A stretch of 64,000 nucleotides of DNA. Origin: Candidatus Heimdallarchaeum endolithica (lineage in GTDB: Archaea > Asgardarchaeota > Heimdallarchaeia > Heimdallarchaeales > Heimdallarchaeaceae). The notes beneath the pieces are model-generated. The model ran no database searches. It saw only the letters and a list, made by a program, of their open reading frames with translations, and was not told where the DNA came from. Below are positions 29,439 to 43,986 of this stretch, piece after piece. A program made the translations under genes and the position numbers. The stretch covers positions 1,504,001 through 1,568,000 of the forward strand of contig CP084167.1 in NCBI GenBank assembly GCA_021513715.1. The letters are read 5' to 3'. Every line of letters begins with the position of its first letter. Within the stretch, counting starts at the first letter, position 1.

Positions 29439-29515
29439 GACCCTGTAGCTCAGTAGGATAGAGCACCTGCCTCCTAAGCAGGGGGTCGACGGTTCGAATC
29501 CGCCCAGGGTCGCCA
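29439..29515 (+). tRNA. tRNA-Arg(CCT), intronless, CCA encoded
   Basis: Acceptor GACCCTG/CAGGGTC, anticodon arm CCTGC-ctCCTaa-GCAGG, T-loop GGTTCGAATCC, ends GCCA. Confidence 0.97.
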
Positions 29516-35407: not shown

Positions 35408-37840
35408 TTGAATAAGATGGCATTCAATGATTTATTAATTTATTTTTGGTCTTATATTACATCAGATACTAGAATAGTCTTAGGGCTTTTAATTGCGTTA
35501 ATTGGGTTTATTTTCCTAATTTCAGAAATATATACGAAACTAAAACATGATACAACAAGTGAAAATATGGTTTTATCCGCGATAGGATTAACATTTGGTT
35601 TAATTTTATTTTTCCTGCAGGATTGGCTAATTGCAATCGCATTTAGTTTTTTCATTTTAGCAGTATATCAAACATGGCAACTAAGAGAGTCTCCTGTGTG
35701 GAGAGAACTAATGATTACTTCAGTAGCTACATATTTTGTTTTTTTAGTTGGAACTGTTGCTGACAAGATATATGAAATTGTGAAAGGAGAAGAAACAGAA
35801 ATATTCACTGGATGGGCATACAATTTAATGATTTATGTTTTCCTTATCATGGCTTTAATATTCTTTGGGAAAAAGTTCATTTTAGTTACAAGGTTTATGT
35901 CTCCGCAAATCTTGTATCTAACACTGTTTGCATTTGCTTACCTTGCTTTATGGACAGTTGGTAAATTTATCCCTAATTTTGATAATCTTACATTAAACTA
36001 TTTGCCAATAAATCCTGAAATTTCAAAAAGAATTATTTTTCTTTCTTTTGGACCTTATGAAATAATAATCATTTTATCATTTTTCTTATATTTTATTTCA
36101 GGGTGGCTTCTTGACGTACTATTAGGTATAAAGCGTACAGAAGATGAGAGATTAAGAAGACTTGTGAATGAAGTAAAAGAAAGATTAGAAATTAAAAAAG
36201 AAATTAAGATTGGAACAGTGAAAGCACCTATTCTCAATGCAATGGCATATGGGCCGTTTTTTGACCAAAGAGTGGCTTTTATTTCTAATGATTTAAACGA
36301 ATTTAGCGATGATGATATCAGAGGAATTGTTGCACATGAGCTAGCACACAATAAAAGAGCTCATGTCATTTGGTTACAAGTCATTTCATCGATGGAAATG
36401 ATAATAAAAAAAGCGTTTCTACTCCCAGCAACAACTCTAGATTATGCAGTAGTAAAAGAAAATATTCCTTTCATTCAATACTTCTTTCTTAGTTATGGGA
36501 TTATTGCTTTTTTAATGATATTTGTTAGAATTATGGAAGGAGATGCAGATAGAAAAACAAAGGAAGTAGGATATGGAAAAGAACTAGCGCAAGCATTATA
36601 CAAATTAGAAGGATTTTATCAAGGAATAGCTGGTGATTTTGGACTAAATGTTCAATTGTTAACTGGAAAAGAATTTACTGAATCTGAAAAACTTCGTTTT
36701 AGGGGAGAAGCAGCTATTTCTCTTTACACTCAATTATACAAACCTAGTAGATGGGCAATGTTCTCTAATATTTTCATGTCTCATCCTAGAACATCATTCA
36801 GAATCGTAGCAGCTATTGATGACAGTTTATCCCCAGTAAAAGGTGCCTTACTACCATATTGGTTAATTCTTCCCAACTTTATAAGAAAAAAAGCAGTAAA
36901 AAATCTAACTAAAAAAAGAGATACTTTTGATGAACTAATATCTAGTAGATTCAGGGAGTATTATGGGAGTGAAGGAGTAAAGCAATTCCTAGAGATTACC
37001 CATTTTAATGAGCTATACCAACCTTATTTTGGAAAAAATGTTGTAGCGTTTGACAAAACTGAAAATGTCATTATTTCAGGTAAAGCAAAAGAATTAATAA
37101 TTAAAGAATCTATTTGTCGTCCCTTACAATTGCTTATTGTTACAGAAATAGAAGAAAAACCGATATATGTAACTGATTACATCATTAATGAAGCAGAAAC
37201 AGGTGAAAAGTACATACTAAAGAATGGAAAGATGGGAGAATTAAAATCCTACATTGTCAAAGAGAAAAGCAACAGACCTATTTTCATTCTAATTGATCAT
37301 AAAGGAAAAGAAATCGAAAGTTATTCAACAGGAAAATCACTCGAATACTTACTATCTAAAGTTAACCAACAAATATTCATTTACAAAGATGGAATTGATC
37401 AAATTACTAAATTATCAAACATTAATGTTGCTGAAACTTATGACGAAACAATTTTTGAGTTTGAAGAAGCAAGTGGAAAACTTTTCTCAATAAAAGGAAA
37501 AGAGCTTATCATTGAATTTCCTCCAGTTCTATTAAGGATTAGAGGTAAAAACAATGAATTGCGCCATCAGCTACTAGAAGGATTAGAAGGTATGTCAGTT
37601 ATTTTGTACACAAAAGAGGAGATAGAAGTAGGAATAGCTTGCAAGATCAAAGGTATTGAAGAAGACAAATTAACTTATGAGACCAGAGAAGGCGAGAATA
37701 AAGTACAAATAAATAAAATTGACTATGTTACTGTATATGCAGACAAACCAAAAGTGTTTTTGAAAAAGCACTTAAGCGCTATAGATAGATTTTTTATCTG
37801 GTGGGAGAATAAAAATAATGATAAATACATTTTTCCATAA
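35408..37840 (+). CDS. M48 (HtpX/Ste24-like) integral membrane zinc metalloprotease with long C-terminal extension
   Basis: Many N-terminal TM helices, NAMA, HELAH, EGDAD, LAQALYKL, MSHP. Confidence 0.85.
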   Translation: MNKMAFNDLLIYFWSYITSDTRIVLGLLIALIGFIFLISEIYTKLKHDTTSENMVLSAIGLTFGLILFFLQDWLIAIAFSFFILAVYQTWQLRESPVWRELMITSVATYFVFLVGTVADKIYEIVKGEETEIFTGWAYNLMIYVFLIMALIFFGKKFILVTRFMSPQILYLTLFAFAYLALWTVGKFIPNFDNLTLNYLPINPEISKRIIFLSFGPYEIIIILSFFLYFISGWLLDVLLGIKRTEDERLRRLVNEVKERLEIKKEIKIGTVKAPILNAMAYGPFFDQRVAFISNDLNEFSDDDIRGIVAHELAHNKRAHVIWLQVISSMEMIIKKAFLLPATTLDYAVVKENIPFIQYFFLSYGIIAFLMIFVRIMEGDADRKTKEVGYGKELAQALYKLEGFYQGIAGDFGLNVQLLTGKEFTESEKLRFRGEAAISLYTQLYKPSRWAMFSNIFMSHPRTSFRIVAAIDDSLSPVKGALLPYWLILPNFIRKKAVKNLTKKRDTFDELISSRFREYYGSEGVKQFLEITHFNELYQPYFGKNVVAFDKTENVIISGKAKELIIKESICRPLQLLIVTEIEEKPIYVTDYIINEAETGEKYILKNGKMGELKSYIVKEKSNRPIFILIDHKGKEIESYSTGKSLEYLLSKVNQQIFIYKDGIDQITKLSNINVAETYDETIFEFEEASGKLFSIKGKELIIEFPPVLLRIRGKNNELRHQLLEGLEGMSVILYTKEEIEVGIACKIKGIEEDKLTYETREGENKVQINKIDYVTVYADKPKVFLKKHLSAIDRFFIWWENKNNDKYIFP

Positions 37841-37948
37841 CTTATTTGCATTTTTTATTATTTAATTTTCTTTTTTTTTGTCGATAGATATTATTGTGAT
37901 ATTATTTCAATAATTCTTAATAATTTAAATAATCTTTAAAACATTTAA

Positions 37949-38308
37949 TTGAGACCTATGGAAGCCAAACAAGTACTAAGAGATCAATTTAATGAAAGAA
38001 AGCTCAATATAAGTGAAAATGTTAGAATAAGAATGGGAAGAAAGGATTATAGAGTAGACTTTTATTTAAAAGATTATAAAATAGGAATTATAACTTTAGA
38101 CTGGAATAGAACCATCCCAGTAAGTAAAATTTTGCAGTTAGAAAGAGTAAAACAAGCATTAAAATTAAAGAAACTAATCTTAGTATGTAATTCAATCAGC
38201 GAAAATGCAAAGGAATTTTTAACATACAGAAATCAAATCAACATACAAGTTGTTCATTCTTCAGAAATAGAGAAATTAGAAAGAAAAATTGATGATTTCG
38301 TTAGTTAA
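37949..38308 (+). CDS. Mrr-like PD-(D/E)XK-fold protein, probably degenerate
   Basis: 'YRVDFYL...DWNRTIPVSKI...LILVCNSISENAKEF' resembles Mrr_cat but lacks the ExK motif. Confidence 0.5.
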   Translation: MRPMEAKQVLRDQFNERKLNISENVRIRMGRKDYRVDFYLKDYKIGIITLDWNRTIPVSKILQLERVKQALKLKKLILVCNSISENAKEFLTYRNQINIQVVHSSEIEKLERKIDDFVS

Positions 38309-39340
38309 TCACAGATAAAAATCTAAAGTTTTTTGTTTTGTTAGCGGATAAGCATTAAAACCTCTTCTCTTTAGTTCAGAAGCAAAACAGAGAGAAGAAC
38401 CATAGATTGTATATACTTTTCTGGGATTACATTTTTCTACTATACCAAGTAATTCATTAAAATCAGCATGGTCACTAACAATAATTCCGTGATCAATTGA
38501 CATTTGAAACTTATAGCTGGAAAAATTACACCAACCTGAAAAGGCAAATAATCTCGCATTATATTTTGATTTTAGATTTCGAAGAAACTCATTTCTTCCA
38601 CTAATTAAAGGAGAAAATAAAATCCAGGGTTTCTTATTTTCCAATAAATTATTTTCTCTCATACATTTATATGAATTATAATTAAAACTCAGATTATGGT
38701 TAACAGATTCAAGAATTTTCTGTATCTTTAGGTTAGATTCATGCAAAATAAGATTATCAGAGAGACTTGAAAAATTGTCGTATAATATTTGAGCTTTGCC
38801 ATAAGGATACCCCATCAAAACTACAGGTATATTTTTTAACAAATAGTCTTCAATAAGGTCTTTTGCTCTTTTAATCTCTTCTTCAAATGGTGGAAATTGG
38901 TACTTAGGCTCTCCAAAAGTAGATTCAATGATTAATGTATCACATTTTTTTGGTCGAAAGGGTTCAATTAGTTTTCCTTTTTTTTGAATAGAAACATCAC
39001 CAGTATAAATTACTCTTTTACCGTAAGAATCAATTTGTAAAGCAGTAGAACCTAATGTATGTCCGCTTGAAACTTGACTAAATTTTACTTCTTCGAACTC
39101 CAAATTTCGAACAAAATTATTTGTTTTTAGTTTTGGAAAAAAGTGTTTTATTAAAGCTTCAGTGTAATGACTACTAAGAATAGTTGTATTTTCTAAAACA
39201 TGTCTAGTTGTATGATCAGAGTGGGCATGACTTACAAATAAAAGATCTGTTTTATTTTTCCTTGTAACGTCACAAGCAATAGACCAACCTCTATCAATTA
39301 ATTGAATACCAGAATTCTTTATGATTTTCATTTCAATCAA
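38309..39340 (-). CDS. MBL-fold beta-CASP nuclease
   Basis: SHAHSDH, SGHTLGS, YTGD, IESTFG, GKAQ, SGW, SDHADF. Confidence 0.9.
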   Translation of the reverse strand: MIEMKIIKNSGIQLIDRGWSIACDVTRKNKTDLLFVSHAHSDHTTRHVLENTTILSSHYTEALIKHFFPKLKTNNFVRNLEFEEVKFSQVSSGHTLGSTALQIDSYGKRVIYTGDVSIQKKGKLIEPFRPKKCDTLIIESTFGEPKYQFPPFEEEIKRAKDLIEDYLLKNIPVVLMGYPYGKAQILYDNFSSLSDNLILHESNLKIQKILESVNHNLSFNYNSYKCMRENNLLENKKPWILFSPLISGRNEFLRNLKSKYNARLFAFSGWCNFSSYKFQMSIDHGIIVSDHADFNELLGIVEKCNPRKVYTIYGSSLCFASELKRRGFNAYPLTKQKTLDFYL

Positions 39341-40689: not shown

Positions 40690-40869
40690 TTTTAAACCTC
40701 TATTTTTTTTTAATTACCAATATTGTGATTGTTGCTATATATCAATTATTTTTTTTCCTTTATAATGACTCACTTTTTACAGAAACTTAAAGGAGAAAAT
40801 TGCTAATTTTACAATCAATCACAATTCGTATATAAAGATATATTTATTATATTTGCTACTATTTTAATA

Positions 40870-41565
40870 ATGAATGCAATGAATCTGCATAGAGACTATT
40901 TTGAGAAATTCGAATATAGTGAGCCTAACTTAGGAAACTTACCATATGACCTTTTTTACTCAAATGAATATAATTACATCACTCTTCCTGAAGTGCAAGT
41001 TCTCTTTGCTTTAACAGATTCAAGTACTTCATATACCTTTTCAGGTTTAAGAAAGAGAACTCAACTACATCAATATAAAATCTCTAAATCTTTAAAGAGG
41101 TTACAAGAACGGGACTTAATAGATAAGGAACAAGATGGAACATATTCTTTAACAGCTAAAGGAGAAGAATTTTCACGAAAACTTATTAAAGAACTATTAA
41201 AAAGAAAAGACATTTCTTATCCAAAATATAATAATTTTCAAATTCAAAGAGTAAAATTGTTTGCAAAAAGAAATTTAGACCAAAAATACATAAAAAAGAA
41301 ACTTTATGGACGTTGGTTCGGTGATTTCAGATTTCTGTACGCTAAAGAAGATGAAAAAAGTTTGAAACTTTGTTGGGAAGATACAGAAAATTGGCAAATA
41401 ATTTTAGAGAACACCATATATAACCAATTGTACATTCAATTTAATCTCAGAGATTACGAAAAAACAAAAATTGATAATTTTACTAATTGGTTATCCAAAG
41501 AACTTCTCACAGAGGTTGATATTCCATCTTATTCACTAAACCAAAAATCTGAAGTTTACAATTAA
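40870..41565 (+). CDS. Winged-helix (MarR-like) DNA-binding protein
   Basis: 'FSGLRKRTQLHQYKISKSLKRLQERDLIDK...YSLT'; divergent from psmB-psmA. Confidence 0.75.
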   Translation: MNAMNLHRDYFEKFEYSEPNLGNLPYDLFYSNEYNYITLPEVQVLFALTDSSTSYTFSGLRKRTQLHQYKISKSLKRLQERDLIDKEQDGTYSLTAKGEEFSRKLIKELLKRKDISYPKYNNFQIQRVKLFAKRNLDQKYIKKKLYGRWFGDFRFLYAKEDEKSLKLCWEDTENWQIILENTIYNQLYIQFNLRDYEKTKIDNFTNWLSKELLTEVDIPSYSLNQKSEVYN

Positions 41566-41598: not shown

Positions 41599-43344
41599 TT
41601 AGTTTTCAAAAACTGAATGCATATCTGAAAGATGGTCTTCTGGTGCCTCTGCAGTGGGGTGTAAAAACACTTCACCATCTAATATTGTAAATGGGATCCT
41701 CCTTTTATCGATCCATGGAGCAATTTCCCTAAATTCCTTAAATAGGTCATTACTCACAATCATTGCTGTTTCTTCTTCTGCAATACGAAGAATAAATTTA
41801 TCTCCATCTACTCTTGCAGGTAACATCTTTATTGCACCTTCTTTTACTAATTGATCCAGTCTCTTTTGATTATCAATCTGATATCGAAGTGCAGCGTCAG
41901 CCACAGTAATTATTTTCTTAAAATTAGACCTACTAAGTTTGTTTATCATTGCTTCAATGTTAGCTAACTTTGGATGTCCAGCAGAATCTTTTTCTTCCCA
42001 AGCAACATTACTACCATCTACAATAACTATATCATAAGGATATGTGGTTTCAGGAAAGATGCGTTCTTGCTCTCCTCTAGTCATTTTTACTAATCCTTTA
42101 ATAATATCTCTTGAAAAATAACCTATTCCTAAAAGTATTGTTATCAAGAGAATAATAATTGTAATATTTTTGTCAAAAGGGTTCAATGGTTCATCATTAG
42201 ATATAATTTGTATATAGAACTCTCCACTAAAATAGAAACTTGTAAACCAATAAATCTCTGGTTGAATTTTCCAAGCAATTTGAATCGAGAGAGTGATACT
42301 TGTATTACCAGCTTCTATAGGTTCATCTTTTAAGATTATATGATGCCCTGAAAAACTAGGAGATATGGCAAATATTTTTCCATTAATTTCAGAGAATGAT
42401 ATGAGAGAGCAAGTAATCTCATGCTCAATGTAAACAACATCAGTTTCGTAATTAGCTATGTCATAAGTAATTAGATATTCCTTGTTTAGCGATGCATTCA
42501 CAGAAAAATGAACATTACTGACTGAAATATTTGGGTAACAGATTATATACAATGGTTCACTTAAAACAATAACAGGATTATCTGGATCATCAAGATTTGT
42601 AAATGAAACTTGATACGAATGTTTTTGATATAAGGGTTCATTTGTAAAAAACCTTATCGTTCCTTTATAACTTTCTCCACTATTTAACATTAGATTCAAA
42701 TATGGAAGATAGATAATTGGACTAGCTTCTGTTCCTTGGCGATCAACTAAGGCTGAGATAGTTACATTAGTAACAGCTGTTCCACCTACATTTACCAACT
42801 GAAAGTCTACTTCAGTAGTTGAATTACGTTTTAAAATAATTTTATTATTGACGAATGTCATTTCTATTTGTCCACTAGGTAGAACCTCAAGGGTAAAAGT
42901 AGCAGTTTGATAAGTAGTTATAACATTTGTACCGTTAACAAAACTTTCGACAGAATAGTTTCCTGTTGGTTGACTATAAAAATCTTTTTTGTTAATTTGA
43001 ACAACATAGTCTAATGAAGAATTAGTTATTATATAGTTATTTTCAATTATTTTTGTAGTTTCATAAGAGATGTTATAAAAAATAGTAGCATCATCGTCTA
43101 CTGGACTACCATTAAGCCAAGACAGGTGGAAAAGTATAACTAAATCGTCAATTCCACGCTTTATTACAGAAGAATTCAGCGATAAGGTAAAATTTACTTC
43201 TGATTTTTCTGAATGATAATAATATCTGGAAATAGGCTCTTGTGATTCAGTTACTTCAGTATTTAACATTGGAGAACGAATAATGAAGCACGAGATTGTG
43301 AGGAACGTAAGAATGGATAGCATGATTAGTAGTTTTTTTTTCAT
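41599..43344 (-). CDS. Single-pass membrane protein: extracellular Ig/CARDB-like domains, TM helix, cytoplasmic Zc3h12a/Regnase-type NYN (PIN) ribonuclease
   Basis: Signal peptide MKKKLLIMLSIL...; Asn-rich beta ectodomain (LVNVGG); TM ITIIILLITILLGIGYF; IVIVDGSNVAW, DGDKFIL, IVSNDLFKEF. Confidence 0.85.
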   Translation of the reverse strand: MKKKLLIMLSILTFLTISCFIIRSPMLNTEVTESQEPISRYYYHSEKSEVNFTLSLNSSVIKRGIDDLVILFHLSWLNGSPVDDDATIFYNISYETTKIIENNYIITNSSLDYVVQINKKDFYSQPTGNYSVESFVNGTNVITTYQTATFTLEVLPSGQIEMTFVNNKIILKRNSTTEVDFQLVNVGGTAVTNVTISALVDRQGTEASPIIYLPYLNLMLNSGESYKGTIRFFTNEPLYQKHSYQVSFTNLDDPDNPVIVLSEPLYIICYPNISVSNVHFSVNASLNKEYLITYDIANYETDVVYIEHEITCSLISFSEINGKIFAISPSFSGHHIILKDEPIEAGNTSITLSIQIAWKIQPEIYWFTSFYFSGEFYIQIISNDEPLNPFDKNITIIILLITILLGIGYFSRDIIKGLVKMTRGEQERIFPETTYPYDIVIVDGSNVAWEEKDSAGHPKLANIEAMINKLSRSNFKKIITVADAALRYQIDNQKRLDQLVKEGAIKMLPARVDGDKFILRIAEEETAMIVSNDLFKEFREIAPWIDKRRIPFTILDGEVFLHPTAEAPEDHLSDMHSVFEN

Positions 43345-43417
43345 TTAATGACCTCCAATGCTTTTATTGAAGTAATAATTCCATATAATATATTCACTTA
43401 ATAAGTTTTTATCTTAA

Positions 43418-43738
43418 AGGGTGTGCGGGAATACCCCTGATTCTGTTCGGAAGTCATTTAGATGAAACTTCCTAGCAACATTCATCTATGCGCTTTACCC
43501 GACTTAGAAAGTCCTATTTAAGCTTGCACCACGATGTATGATCGTTTCATCGCTCCCTCTTTACTCCTCAATAACTTCACAGGTCACCCTATGTGCCATA
43601 TCATTGTCAACGTAAAGAGGACGTGTCGTTTCTATTTCAGGGACCACGTTCTCACGTGATGGGTTTGCACCCATATCGTTTTTTAGGTGTCAGGAGGTTC
43701 CTCAGGTTTAACCCGAAAGTTGCTCTCCCGCTCACCCT
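43418..43738 (-). ncRNA. rnpB: RNase P RNA
   Basis: Minus strand: P1 AGGGUGAGCGGGA/UCCCGCACACCCU; CR-I GAGGAACCUCCUGA pairs with CR-V ACAGAAUCAGGGGUA (P4 with bulged U); about 320 nt GC-enriched island. Confidence 0.92.
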
Positions 43739-43908: not shown

Positions 43909-43986
43909 GGGCCAGTAGTCTAGCTTGGATAAGGCACCTGCCTGCGGAGCAGGGTATCGCAGGTTCAAGTCCTGCCTGGCCCGCCA
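43909..43986 (+). tRNA. tRNA-Arg(GCG), intronless, CCA encoded
   Basis: Acceptor GGGCCAG/CTGGCCC, anticodon arm CCTGC-ctGCGga-GCAGG, GGTTCAAGTCC, ends GCCA followed by a T-run. Confidence 0.97.

What the first reader, a model, noticed from the sequence alone, without database searches (positions are those of the whole stretch)
41599..43344. Receptor-like transmembrane ribonuclease (ectodomain, TM, Regnase-type NYN domain)
Seen: a signal peptide, about 365 aa of beta-rich ectodomain with many NxS/T sequons, one TM helix, then a cytoplasmic PIN/NYN domain with acidic catalytic positions retained (VDGSN, DGD.FIL, VSND.FKE). Known: this motif set defines Zc3h12a/Regnase-1/N4BP1-type RNases, which are soluble immune and mRNA-decay factors in animals; IRE1 is the precedent for a signal-activated transmembrane RNase but uses an unrelated KEN domain. 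Inference: a one-component system in which an external cue (virus, partner cell, envelope stress) triggers clustering and cytoplasmic RNA cleavage. It lies just downstream of rnpB on the same strand. This is my best candidate for an undescribed system in the window.
Basis: partly seen in the sequence, partly recalled or inferred. Interest (0 to 1): 0.88.

Follow-up and report, generated by a model that had tools for sequence, protein, structure and literature searches.

The report
Receptor-shaped membrane RNase of Asgard archaea
This gene encodes a cell-surface protein with three antibody-like domains outside the cell and an apparently intact Regnase-type RNA-cutting domain inside; it is kept as a single, highly conserved core gene across one order of Asgard archaea, and I found no paper describing this layout or its function.

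Summary
Observation confirmed. The 581-aa ORF (41599-43344, minus strand; Ca. Heimdallarchaeum, probably endolithica) has an N-terminal signal/anchor, three Ig-like beta-sandwiches, one TM helix (393-411) and a cytoplasmic Zc3h12a/PRORP-group NYN domain (Pfam E 1e-15; Z 16.4 to ZC3H12C). Topology holds in 69 of 69 orthologues. One correction: D513 is not catalytic and the Regnase D225 position is Gly. Invariant D483 appears to supply that carboxylate, since the two never co-occur (108 vs 9, none with both). The architecture is in 40 of 47 genomes of the order, nearly always single-copy and one clade, and in 0 of 36 genomes of other orders searched. The NYN domain is more conserved (76-82%) than proteasome subunits (63-71%); the ectodomain is under purifying selection. 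This fits core physiology, not defence. The link to rnpB is family-level gene order: the gene has its own conserved TATA box and is unlinked in other families. Best reading: a membrane-tethered host-RNA endoribonuclease positioned by its ectodomain (0.45); signal-gated IRE1-like receptor 0.3. Activity, ligand and substrate are untested. The scan found this family before in other genomes.

The parts
41599..43344 (-). CDS, 581 aa: signal/anchor - Ig x3 - TM - NYN RNase
43279..43335 (-). N-terminal hydrophobic segment (res 4-22) after MKKK; Sec-type signal peptide or uncleaved anchor
   Evidence: hydropathy; present in most full-length orthologues
42880..43203 (-). Ig-like domain D1 (res 48-155), macroglobulin-MG-like beta-sandwich
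   Evidence: AF2 pLDDT about 90; Z 12.7, rmsd 1.9, 96 aligned to alpha2-macroglobulin 2p9r
42535..42879 (-). Ig-like domain D2 (res 156-270), CARDB/TRAP-beta/ASH-like class; most constrained ectodomain part
   Evidence: dN/dS 0.016 vs H. aukensis
42199..42534 (-). Ig-like domain D3 (res 271-382)
   Evidence: Z 11.0, rmsd 3.2, 107 aligned to 7e1y
42112..42168 (-). Single transmembrane helix (res 393-411), N-out/C-in
   Evidence: more K/R after than before the TM in 69/69 orthologues
42037..42111 (-). Basic juxtamembrane helix, low-confidence linker (420-429) and aromatic FPE..YP arm (res 412-436)
41656..42036 (-). Zc3h12a/PRORP-group NYN (PIN-like) nuclease domain (res 437-563); acids D443, D483, D515, D533, E537
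43399..43408 (-). Putative own archaeal BRE/TATA element (AAACTTATTA), 64 nt upstream of the ATG
   Evidence: same motif 54-63 nt upstream in 15 of 20 family loci, vs 3% of genes genome-wide; pattern derived from these loci, function inferred
43351..43356 (-). Shine-Dalgarno GGAGGT
   Evidence: sequence, also in H. aukensis
43421..43735 (-). rnpB, archaeal RNase P RNA; neighbour, probably not a functional part

Best explanation
A vertically inherited, membrane-tethered, metal-dependent endoribonuclease of core cell physiology. Shown: a type-I membrane protein with a three-Ig ectodomain outside and a NYN domain on a flexible tether inside, bearing a full set of acidic residues (D443, D483, D515, D533, plus E537). 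Inferred from family knowledge: it cuts single-stranded RNA with Mg/Mn. Inferred: because it lacks the RNA-selecting modules of Regnase (CCCH), KHNYN/N4BP1 (KH) and PRORP (PPR), substrate choice comes from location. The N-glycosylated Ig stalk docks it into a partner complex or envelope site, so it degrades or processes host RNA that comes near the membrane (most simply mRNAs translated at the membrane), much as RNase Y is confined to the membrane. The extreme conservation of the NYN surface points to a fixed host substrate or partner. Any control by the ectodomain would act through local concentration, not rigid transmission across the membrane.
For: Topology: 3.2 vs 0.22 sequons per 100 aa outside vs inside, 39% vs 4% of Asn in sequons, positive-inside in 69/69; AglB/STT3 present. 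Fold: Z 16.4, rmsd 2.2, 132 aligned to ZC3H12C, then PRORP1 Z 12.6. Active site: four Asp invariant in 69 orthologues; D483 and the D225-equivalent are mutually exclusive in 119 prokaryotic NYN domains. Core-gene behaviour: 40/47 genomes of the order, one copy except G025; one clade with family-wise grouping (SH-aLRT 94, quick tree); retained in Ca. Kariarchaeum pelagius. NYN identity 76-82% vs psmB 63-71% and psmA 69% in the same loci; dN/dS 0.014-0.07 in unsaturated pairs. Own promoter-like element. Linker pLDDT below 50. Invariant ectodomain residues are structural (G64, N185, G187, P271).
Against: No activity, expression, substrate or partner data. A plain anchor needs only one TM helix, and such TM-NYN proteins exist (P0112, P0142). 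Yet every full-length member keeps a three-domain ectodomain of constant size under purifying selection (dN/dS 0.08-0.21 in unsaturated pairs), which fits a sensor equally well. One of the four Regnase Asp positions is Gly; compensation by D483 is inferred from covariation in few independent clades, not from coordinates.
Confidence: 0.45

Rival explanations
1. Signal-gated receptor RNase (IRE1 analogue). The Ig ectodomain binds unfolded envelope proteins, a glycan or a partner cell; clustering brings NYN domains together and switches on cleavage of selected RNAs.
For: Classic type-I receptor layout. Constant three-domain ectodomain under purifying selection, with D2 dN/dS 0.016. Clade-specific conserved NYN residues outside the catalytic acids (W449, Y488, D497, K506, V512, R520, D546, H562) could form an oligomer or partner surface. 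Proteasome genes lie nearby in three families. The genome has about 28 type-I proteins with large cytoplasmic parts, including wHTH and HATPase_c-like outputs. An independent ectodomain-TM-NYN fusion exists in Thermofilaceae.
Against: Ectodomain identity is only 30-33% within the family and about 15-19% across families, with no invariant polar pocket residues seen. There is no kinase or other regulatory domain, and the linker is flexible. The downstream wHTH-proteasome genes have their own conserved promoter-like motif and are inverted or unlinked in some lineages.
Confidence: 0.3
2. Antiviral/abortive-infection effector: the ectodomain senses virus attachment and the RNase shuts the cell down, or destroys incoming nucleic acid at the membrane.
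For: Eukaryotic relatives (Regnase, KHNYN, N4BP1) are antiviral (PMC12709174; PMC5499597). TM-plus-nuclease layouts are common in prokaryotic defence (own knowledge).
Against: Near-universal single-copy presence, stable housekeeping neighbourhood and strong purifying selection on both halves. No PADLOC match. No relative found in phage records or IMG/VR contigs. No antitoxin-like partner gene.
Confidence: 0.1
3. tRNA/RNase P-linked processing enzyme (PRORP-like) that acts with, or on, the adjacent rnpB transcript.
For: rnpB is directly upstream in 20/20 family loci. PRORP is the second-best fold match.
Against: rnpB is absent from 14/14 loci of the other three families and on a different contig in 5/5 genomes checked. 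Pop5, Rpp29, Rpp21 and Rpp30 are all present. There is no PPR domain. Most relatives have a T-rich tract and a separate TATA element between the two genes.
Confidence: 0.07
4. Catalytically weak or dead domain that tethers RNA or an RNP to the membrane.
For: The D225/D524 position is Gly; there is no direct activity evidence.
Against: Four Asp are invariant, and the same Gly/Ala-plus-D483 pattern is the rule in 108 of 119 prokaryotic members, most of them soluble.
Confidence: 0.08

Closest known systems
Regnase-1/MCPIP1 (ZC3H12A), ZC3H12B-D, KHNYN, N4BP1 (Pfam PF11977)
   Same: Same NYN/PIN-like fold (Z 16.4, about 23% identity); D141/D226/D244/D248 equivalents kept (D443, D515, D533, E537).
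   Different: Those are soluble and carry CCCH, KH or CUE modules. This one is a type-I membrane glycoprotein without an RNA-binding module, and has Gly at the D225 position with D483 instead.
Uncharacterised prokaryotic Zc3h12a-like proteins (23 archaeal, 154 bacterial, 'unknown function', PMC5499597)
   Same: Nearest sequence relatives (33-46% identity in the domain); share the DGSN / DAxL / xDxFI / SND motif set.
   Different: Mostly stand-alone 140-240 aa or fused to other domains; none examined has the three-Ig + TM ectodomain.
IRE1 (kinase-KEN RNase)
   Same: Single-pass layout with a non-cytoplasmic N-terminal domain and a cytoplasmic RNase; analogy only (own knowledge).
   Different: Unrelated nuclease fold, no kinase, different ectodomain; gating not shown here.
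Bacterial RNase Y; PIN-TRAM proteins (COG4956/YacL)
   Same: Ribonuclease domains held at the inner face of the membrane (RNase Y from own knowledge; COG4956 in PMC5499597).
   Different: HD or VapC-type nuclease, N-terminal TM helices, RNA-binding KH/TRAM domain, no large ectodomain.
PRORP (protein-only RNase P)
   Same: Same structural group (Z 12.6).
   Different: Below the Pfam cut-off (17.5 vs 39.1 bits); no PPR or Zn domain; the RNA-based RNase P is complete in this genome.

Membership tests
RNase_Zc3h12a domain family (PF11977) | Profile match above the gathering score | tested here: met
   58.3 bits vs 23, E 9.5e-16
RNase_Zc3h12a domain family (PF11977) | PRORP-group PIN-like fold | tested here: met
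   AF2 pLDDT 95; Z 16.4, rmsd 2.2, 132 aligned to 7ndj
Regnase/KHNYN eukaryotic subfamily | Tetra-Asp motif in register (D141/D225/D226/D244) | tested here: not met
   Three in register; D225 position is G514; D483 is the likely substitute
Regnase/KHNYN eukaryotic subfamily | CCCH zinc finger, KH or CUE accessory domains | tested here: not met
   No Cys in the cytoplasmic part; no such Pfam hit at E<=1; only an 18-residue tail follows the domain
RNase_Zc3h12a domain family (PF11977) | Metal-dependent ssRNA endonuclease activity | not testable with these tools
   needs an assay
IRE1-type receptor RNase | Kinase plus KEN domain | tested here: not met
IRE1-type receptor RNase | Single-pass topology with the RNase in the cytoplasm | tested here: met
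IRE1-type receptor RNase | Activation by ligand-induced clustering | not testable with these tools
   needs a biochemical test
PRORP | PF16953 above cut-off and a PPR domain | tested here: not met
   17.5 vs 39.1 bits; no PPR
Known prokaryotic defence systems | PADLOC model match; patchy, island-associated distribution | tested here: not met
   no match; 40/47 genomes, stable synteny
TRAP-beta (translocon-associated) | One Ig domain directly before the TM; PF05753 above cut-off | tested here: inconclusive
   weak hits in 10/61 ectodomains (best E 1.6e-5), none for the query; PDB profile hit at E 0.58 maps to D2; a separate TRAP-beta gene exists at G000:3,263,769

The most novel reading that the evidence does not exclude
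A one-component envelope-stress receptor RNase, an archaeal functional analogue of IRE1 built from a Regnase-type nuclease. Its CARDB/TRAP-beta-like Ig domains sense misfolded or accumulating surface proteins, possibly at the Sec translocon, and clustering triggers decay of membrane-translated mRNAs in close archaeal relatives of eukaryotes.
Probability: 0.25. Interest if true: 0.88.

Novelty: new variant of a known kind. Interest (0 to 1): 0.58.

Why it matters
I found no description of a PIN/NYN-family nuclease as the output of a single-pass, receptor-shaped protein, and prokaryotic Zc3h12a-like proteins have no assigned function. This one is a near-universal, strongly conserved gene of Heimdallarchaeaceae, Kariarchaeaceae and related families. 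It offers a tractable 140-residue domain for the first biochemical test of a prokaryotic Regnase-type enzyme and of its shifted catalytic Asp. If gated from outside, it would show that IRE1-like transmembrane RNA control arose independently in Asgard archaea. It was not found in the other Heimdallarchaeia orders searched and its motif set differs from the eukaryotic one, so it is unlikely to be the direct ancestor of Regnase or IRE1.

Tried and rejected
Homodimer prediction of res 385-566 gave no answer (score 0.00; neither support nor evidence against). Foldseek of the full model returned only generic tandem beta-sandwich proteins such as integrin legs, complement and ASH repeats; these identify no ligand. 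The ESM Atlas feature search gave no usable hit. Literature searches for Asgard + Zc3h12a, NYN + transmembrane + archaea, Heimdallarchaeia + receptor + ribonuclease, PF11977 and IRE1 + Asgard found no description of this protein. The genome paper (PMC8813620) and a 2026 Asgard structure survey do not mention NYN in their main text; the library lacks most subscription journals. A functional link to rnpB was rejected. An operon with wHTH-psmB-psmA was not supported. A frameshift or assembly chimera was rejected: the fusion occurs in more than 80 proteins from independent assemblies. Identity with TRAP-beta was not supported. The sigma-70 promoter scan was uninformative for an archaeon. The careful tree did not finish; the quick tree was used and contains no eukaryotic sequences. 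dS is near saturation in most pairs, so only unsaturated pairs were used. The Fisher p-value for D483/D514 exclusivity overstates significance because the nine D514 proteins probably form one clade.

Full report
1. Observation. The ORF is real: 41599-43344, minus strand, 581 aa, with a GGAGGT ribosome-binding site. Hydropathy gives two segments only, residues 4-22 and 393-411. The region between them has 12 N-glycosylation sequons against 5.5 expected (p=0.004); the C-terminal part has none. Pfam places RNase_Zc3h12a at 438-556 (E 9.5e-16). rnpB ends 76 nt upstream on the same strand.

2. Source. The genome is one 3.33-Mb contig. The protein is 90% identical to its orthologue in Ca. Heimdallarchaeum aukensis CP084166, a genome of the same genus. 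PMC8813620 gives 90% amino-acid identity between H. aukensis and H. endolithica, so this is probably H. endolithica (inference).

3. Anatomy. AlphaFold2 with 69 orthologues (mean pLDDT 84.5) gives three beta-sandwich domains (48-155, 156-270, 271-382), a helix running from the TM into a basic juxtamembrane stretch (392-422), a low-confidence linker (420-429) and the nuclease domain. The sandwiches match generic Ig-like folds: alpha2-macroglobulin MG (Z 12.7), CEP192 ASH (Z 10.7) and an archaeal amylopullulanase domain (Z 11.0). CARDB is hit weakly by 19 of 61 ectodomains and TRAP-beta by 10. Related repeats occur in giant surface proteins. No ligand can be read from the fold. The nuclease domain alone (pLDDT 95) is closest to ZC3H12C (Z 16.4, rmsd 2.2 over 132 residues), then PRORP1 (12.6), well above Rae1/YacP (7.4) and VapC-type PINs.

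4. Topology. Across 69 orthologues the ectodomain carries 3.2 sequons per 100 residues against 0.22 inside, and 39% of its Asn lie in sequons against 4%. Every sequence has more K/R after the TM than before (means 4.9 vs 0.3). The genome encodes AglB/STT3. The NYN domain is therefore cytoplasmic, whether or not the first segment is cleaved.

5. Active site. Regnase-1 uses D141, D225, D226, D244, D248 (PMC5499597); KHNYN uses D443, D524, D525, D543 (PMC12709174). D443, D515, D533 and E537 align with these, but the D225/D524 position is G514. A further Asp, D483 at the end of strand 2, is invariant; human proteins have Pro there. Among 119 dereplicated prokaryotic NYN domains, 108 have D483 without D514, 9 have D514 without D483, none has both and 2 have neither. 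I infer that the two positions are alternative sources of one carboxylate, so the site is probably complete. The nine exceptions likely form one clade, so this is suggestive rather than statistical proof.

6. Distribution. The full architecture is in 40 of 47 genomes of the order (own family 27/31, others 1/1, 2/3, 10/12), three of them split at contig ends. It was not found in any of 36 searched genomes of the other orders of the class. It is single-copy except in G025. Named hits are Heimdallarchaeaceae and Kariarchaeaceae, including the marine Ca. Kariarchaeum pelagius. PF11977 itself is in 110 of 251 Asgard genomes, outside this order mostly as short stand-alone proteins. In a quick tree the Ig-TM-NYN proteins form one clade (SH-aLRT 94) with families grouping together, consistent with one fusion and vertical descent. 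No relative was found in phage records or viral contigs, and PADLOC has no match. Membrane anchoring of this domain recurs independently: a Thermofilaceae protein has signal, unrelated ectodomain, TM and NYN, and single- and multi-TM forms exist.

7. Selection. Against other genera of the family the NYN domain is 76-82% identical, above psmB (63-71%), psmA (69%) and all other neighbours. The ectodomain is 30-33%, below all of them. Against H. aukensis dN/dS is 0.014 for NYN, 0.077 for the ectodomain and 0.016 for D2; other unsaturated pairs give 0.13-0.21 for the ectodomain. Both halves are under purifying selection. Invariant ectodomain residues are structural (G64, N185, G187, P271), whereas the NYN domain has clade-specific conserved residues beyond the acids. 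This points to a fixed substrate or partner inside and a shape-constrained stalk outside.

8. Context. rnpB is directly upstream in 20 of 20 family loci, in 0 of 14 loci from the other families, and on another contig in 5 of 5 such genomes. Most relatives have a T-rich tract after rnpB, then a conserved TATA-like element 54-63 nt before the start. The window has the element at 43399-43408; 3% of genes in this genome carry the pattern upstream. All four RNase P proteins are present. Downstream lie wHTH, psmB, psmA and a metallo-beta-lactamase-fold gene. wHTH is inverted in this genus and has its own promoter-like motif elsewhere. The gene is most likely monocistronic within a conserved housekeeping block. 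The genome has about 28 type-I proteins with cytoplasmic parts of 90 residues or more, some with wHTH, HATPase_c-like or zinc-ribbon/RING-like outputs, so the layout is a common design here and the RNase output is the unusual part.

9. Mechanism. Shown: architecture, topology, fold, conserved acids, vertical single-copy inheritance. From established knowledge: domains of this family are metal-dependent ssRNA endonucleases that depend on extra modules for targeting (PMC5499597). Inferred: with no such module, targeting comes from position, and the Ig stalk docks the enzyme at a partner complex or envelope site where it cuts host RNA (0.45). The rival, gating by ligand-induced clustering as in IRE1, explains the retention of a constant ectodomain equally well but lacks a conserved pocket or regulatory domain (0.3). 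Defence (0.1), an RNase P-linked role (0.07) and a dead RNA tether (0.08) fit the data worse.

10. Novelty and verdict. The domain belongs to a known family, already auto-annotated as 'NYN domain-containing protein' in some records. I found no paper on the receptor-like layout, within a library that lacks most subscription journals. It is not a Regnase or IRE1 member by their defining features, though it may work like either in part. Earlier agents of this scan reported the same family from other genomes; my reading was set down before that look-up and agrees with theirs. New variant of a known kind; interest 0.58.

Noticed in passing
L066:3020-4384 (P0120, Thermofilaceae, GCA_038833645.1): Independent receptor-like fusion: signal peptide, about 150-aa beta-rich ectodomain unrelated to the Heimdall one, coiled-coil-like stretch, TM, NYN; downstream of a GH20 gene.
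   Followed up: partly
L040:3656-5668; P0130, P0292: PQQ-type beta-propeller fused to a C-terminal Zc3h12a-type NYN. L040 has an N-terminal hydrophobic segment and no internal TM detected, so it may be a secreted or N-anchored RNase.
   Followed up: partly
L026:8000-9865, L030:6897-8705; paralogues at G000:C1:3072574-3074415 and 1273416-1275176: About 600-aa family with an N-terminal VapC-like PIN motif set (DTN...PD...SSD), no Pfam hit for the member scanned; adjacent to the NYN gene in six loci of two other families.
   Followed up: partly
window 40870-41565: wHTH gene is inverted in this genus (convergent with the NYN gene) but co-oriented with NYN-psmB-psmA in all other genera of the family.
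   Followed up: yes
window 40761-40769: The GAGTCATTATA promoter-like motif that precedes wHTH in relatives lies here on the minus strand, about 70 nt upstream of psmB.
   Followed up: partly
G000:C1:608641-640165: Cluster of at least eight large type-I membrane proteins with 290-470-aa cytoplasmic parts; of six scanned, none had a Pfam match over the cut-off. Elsewhere one type-I protein has a cytoplasmic wHTH (938672-940021) and one a HATPase_c-like domain (340478-342985).
   Followed up: partly
P0129, P0134, P0138, P0193, P0216; L041, L044: A prokaryotic NYN subgroup, mostly with DGNN and including Asgard proteins, has the eukaryote-style DD pair and lacks D483; a better candidate relative of eukaryotic Regnase than the membrane clade.
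   Followed up: partly
window 35408-39340: Conserved neighbours: multi-TM M48 (HtpX-like) protease with a long C-terminal extension, a 119-aa Mrr_cat-like ORF, and a metallo-beta-lactamase/RMMBL nuclease-like gene after psmA.
   Followed up: partly
G000:C1:2393450-2393830: Second, weaker Rpp30-like match (below the cut-off) besides the main Rpp30 next to Pop5.
   Followed up: no
window 43909-43986 and 29439-29515: tRNA-Arg(GCG), divergent from rnpB, and tRNA-Arg(CCT).
   Followed up: no
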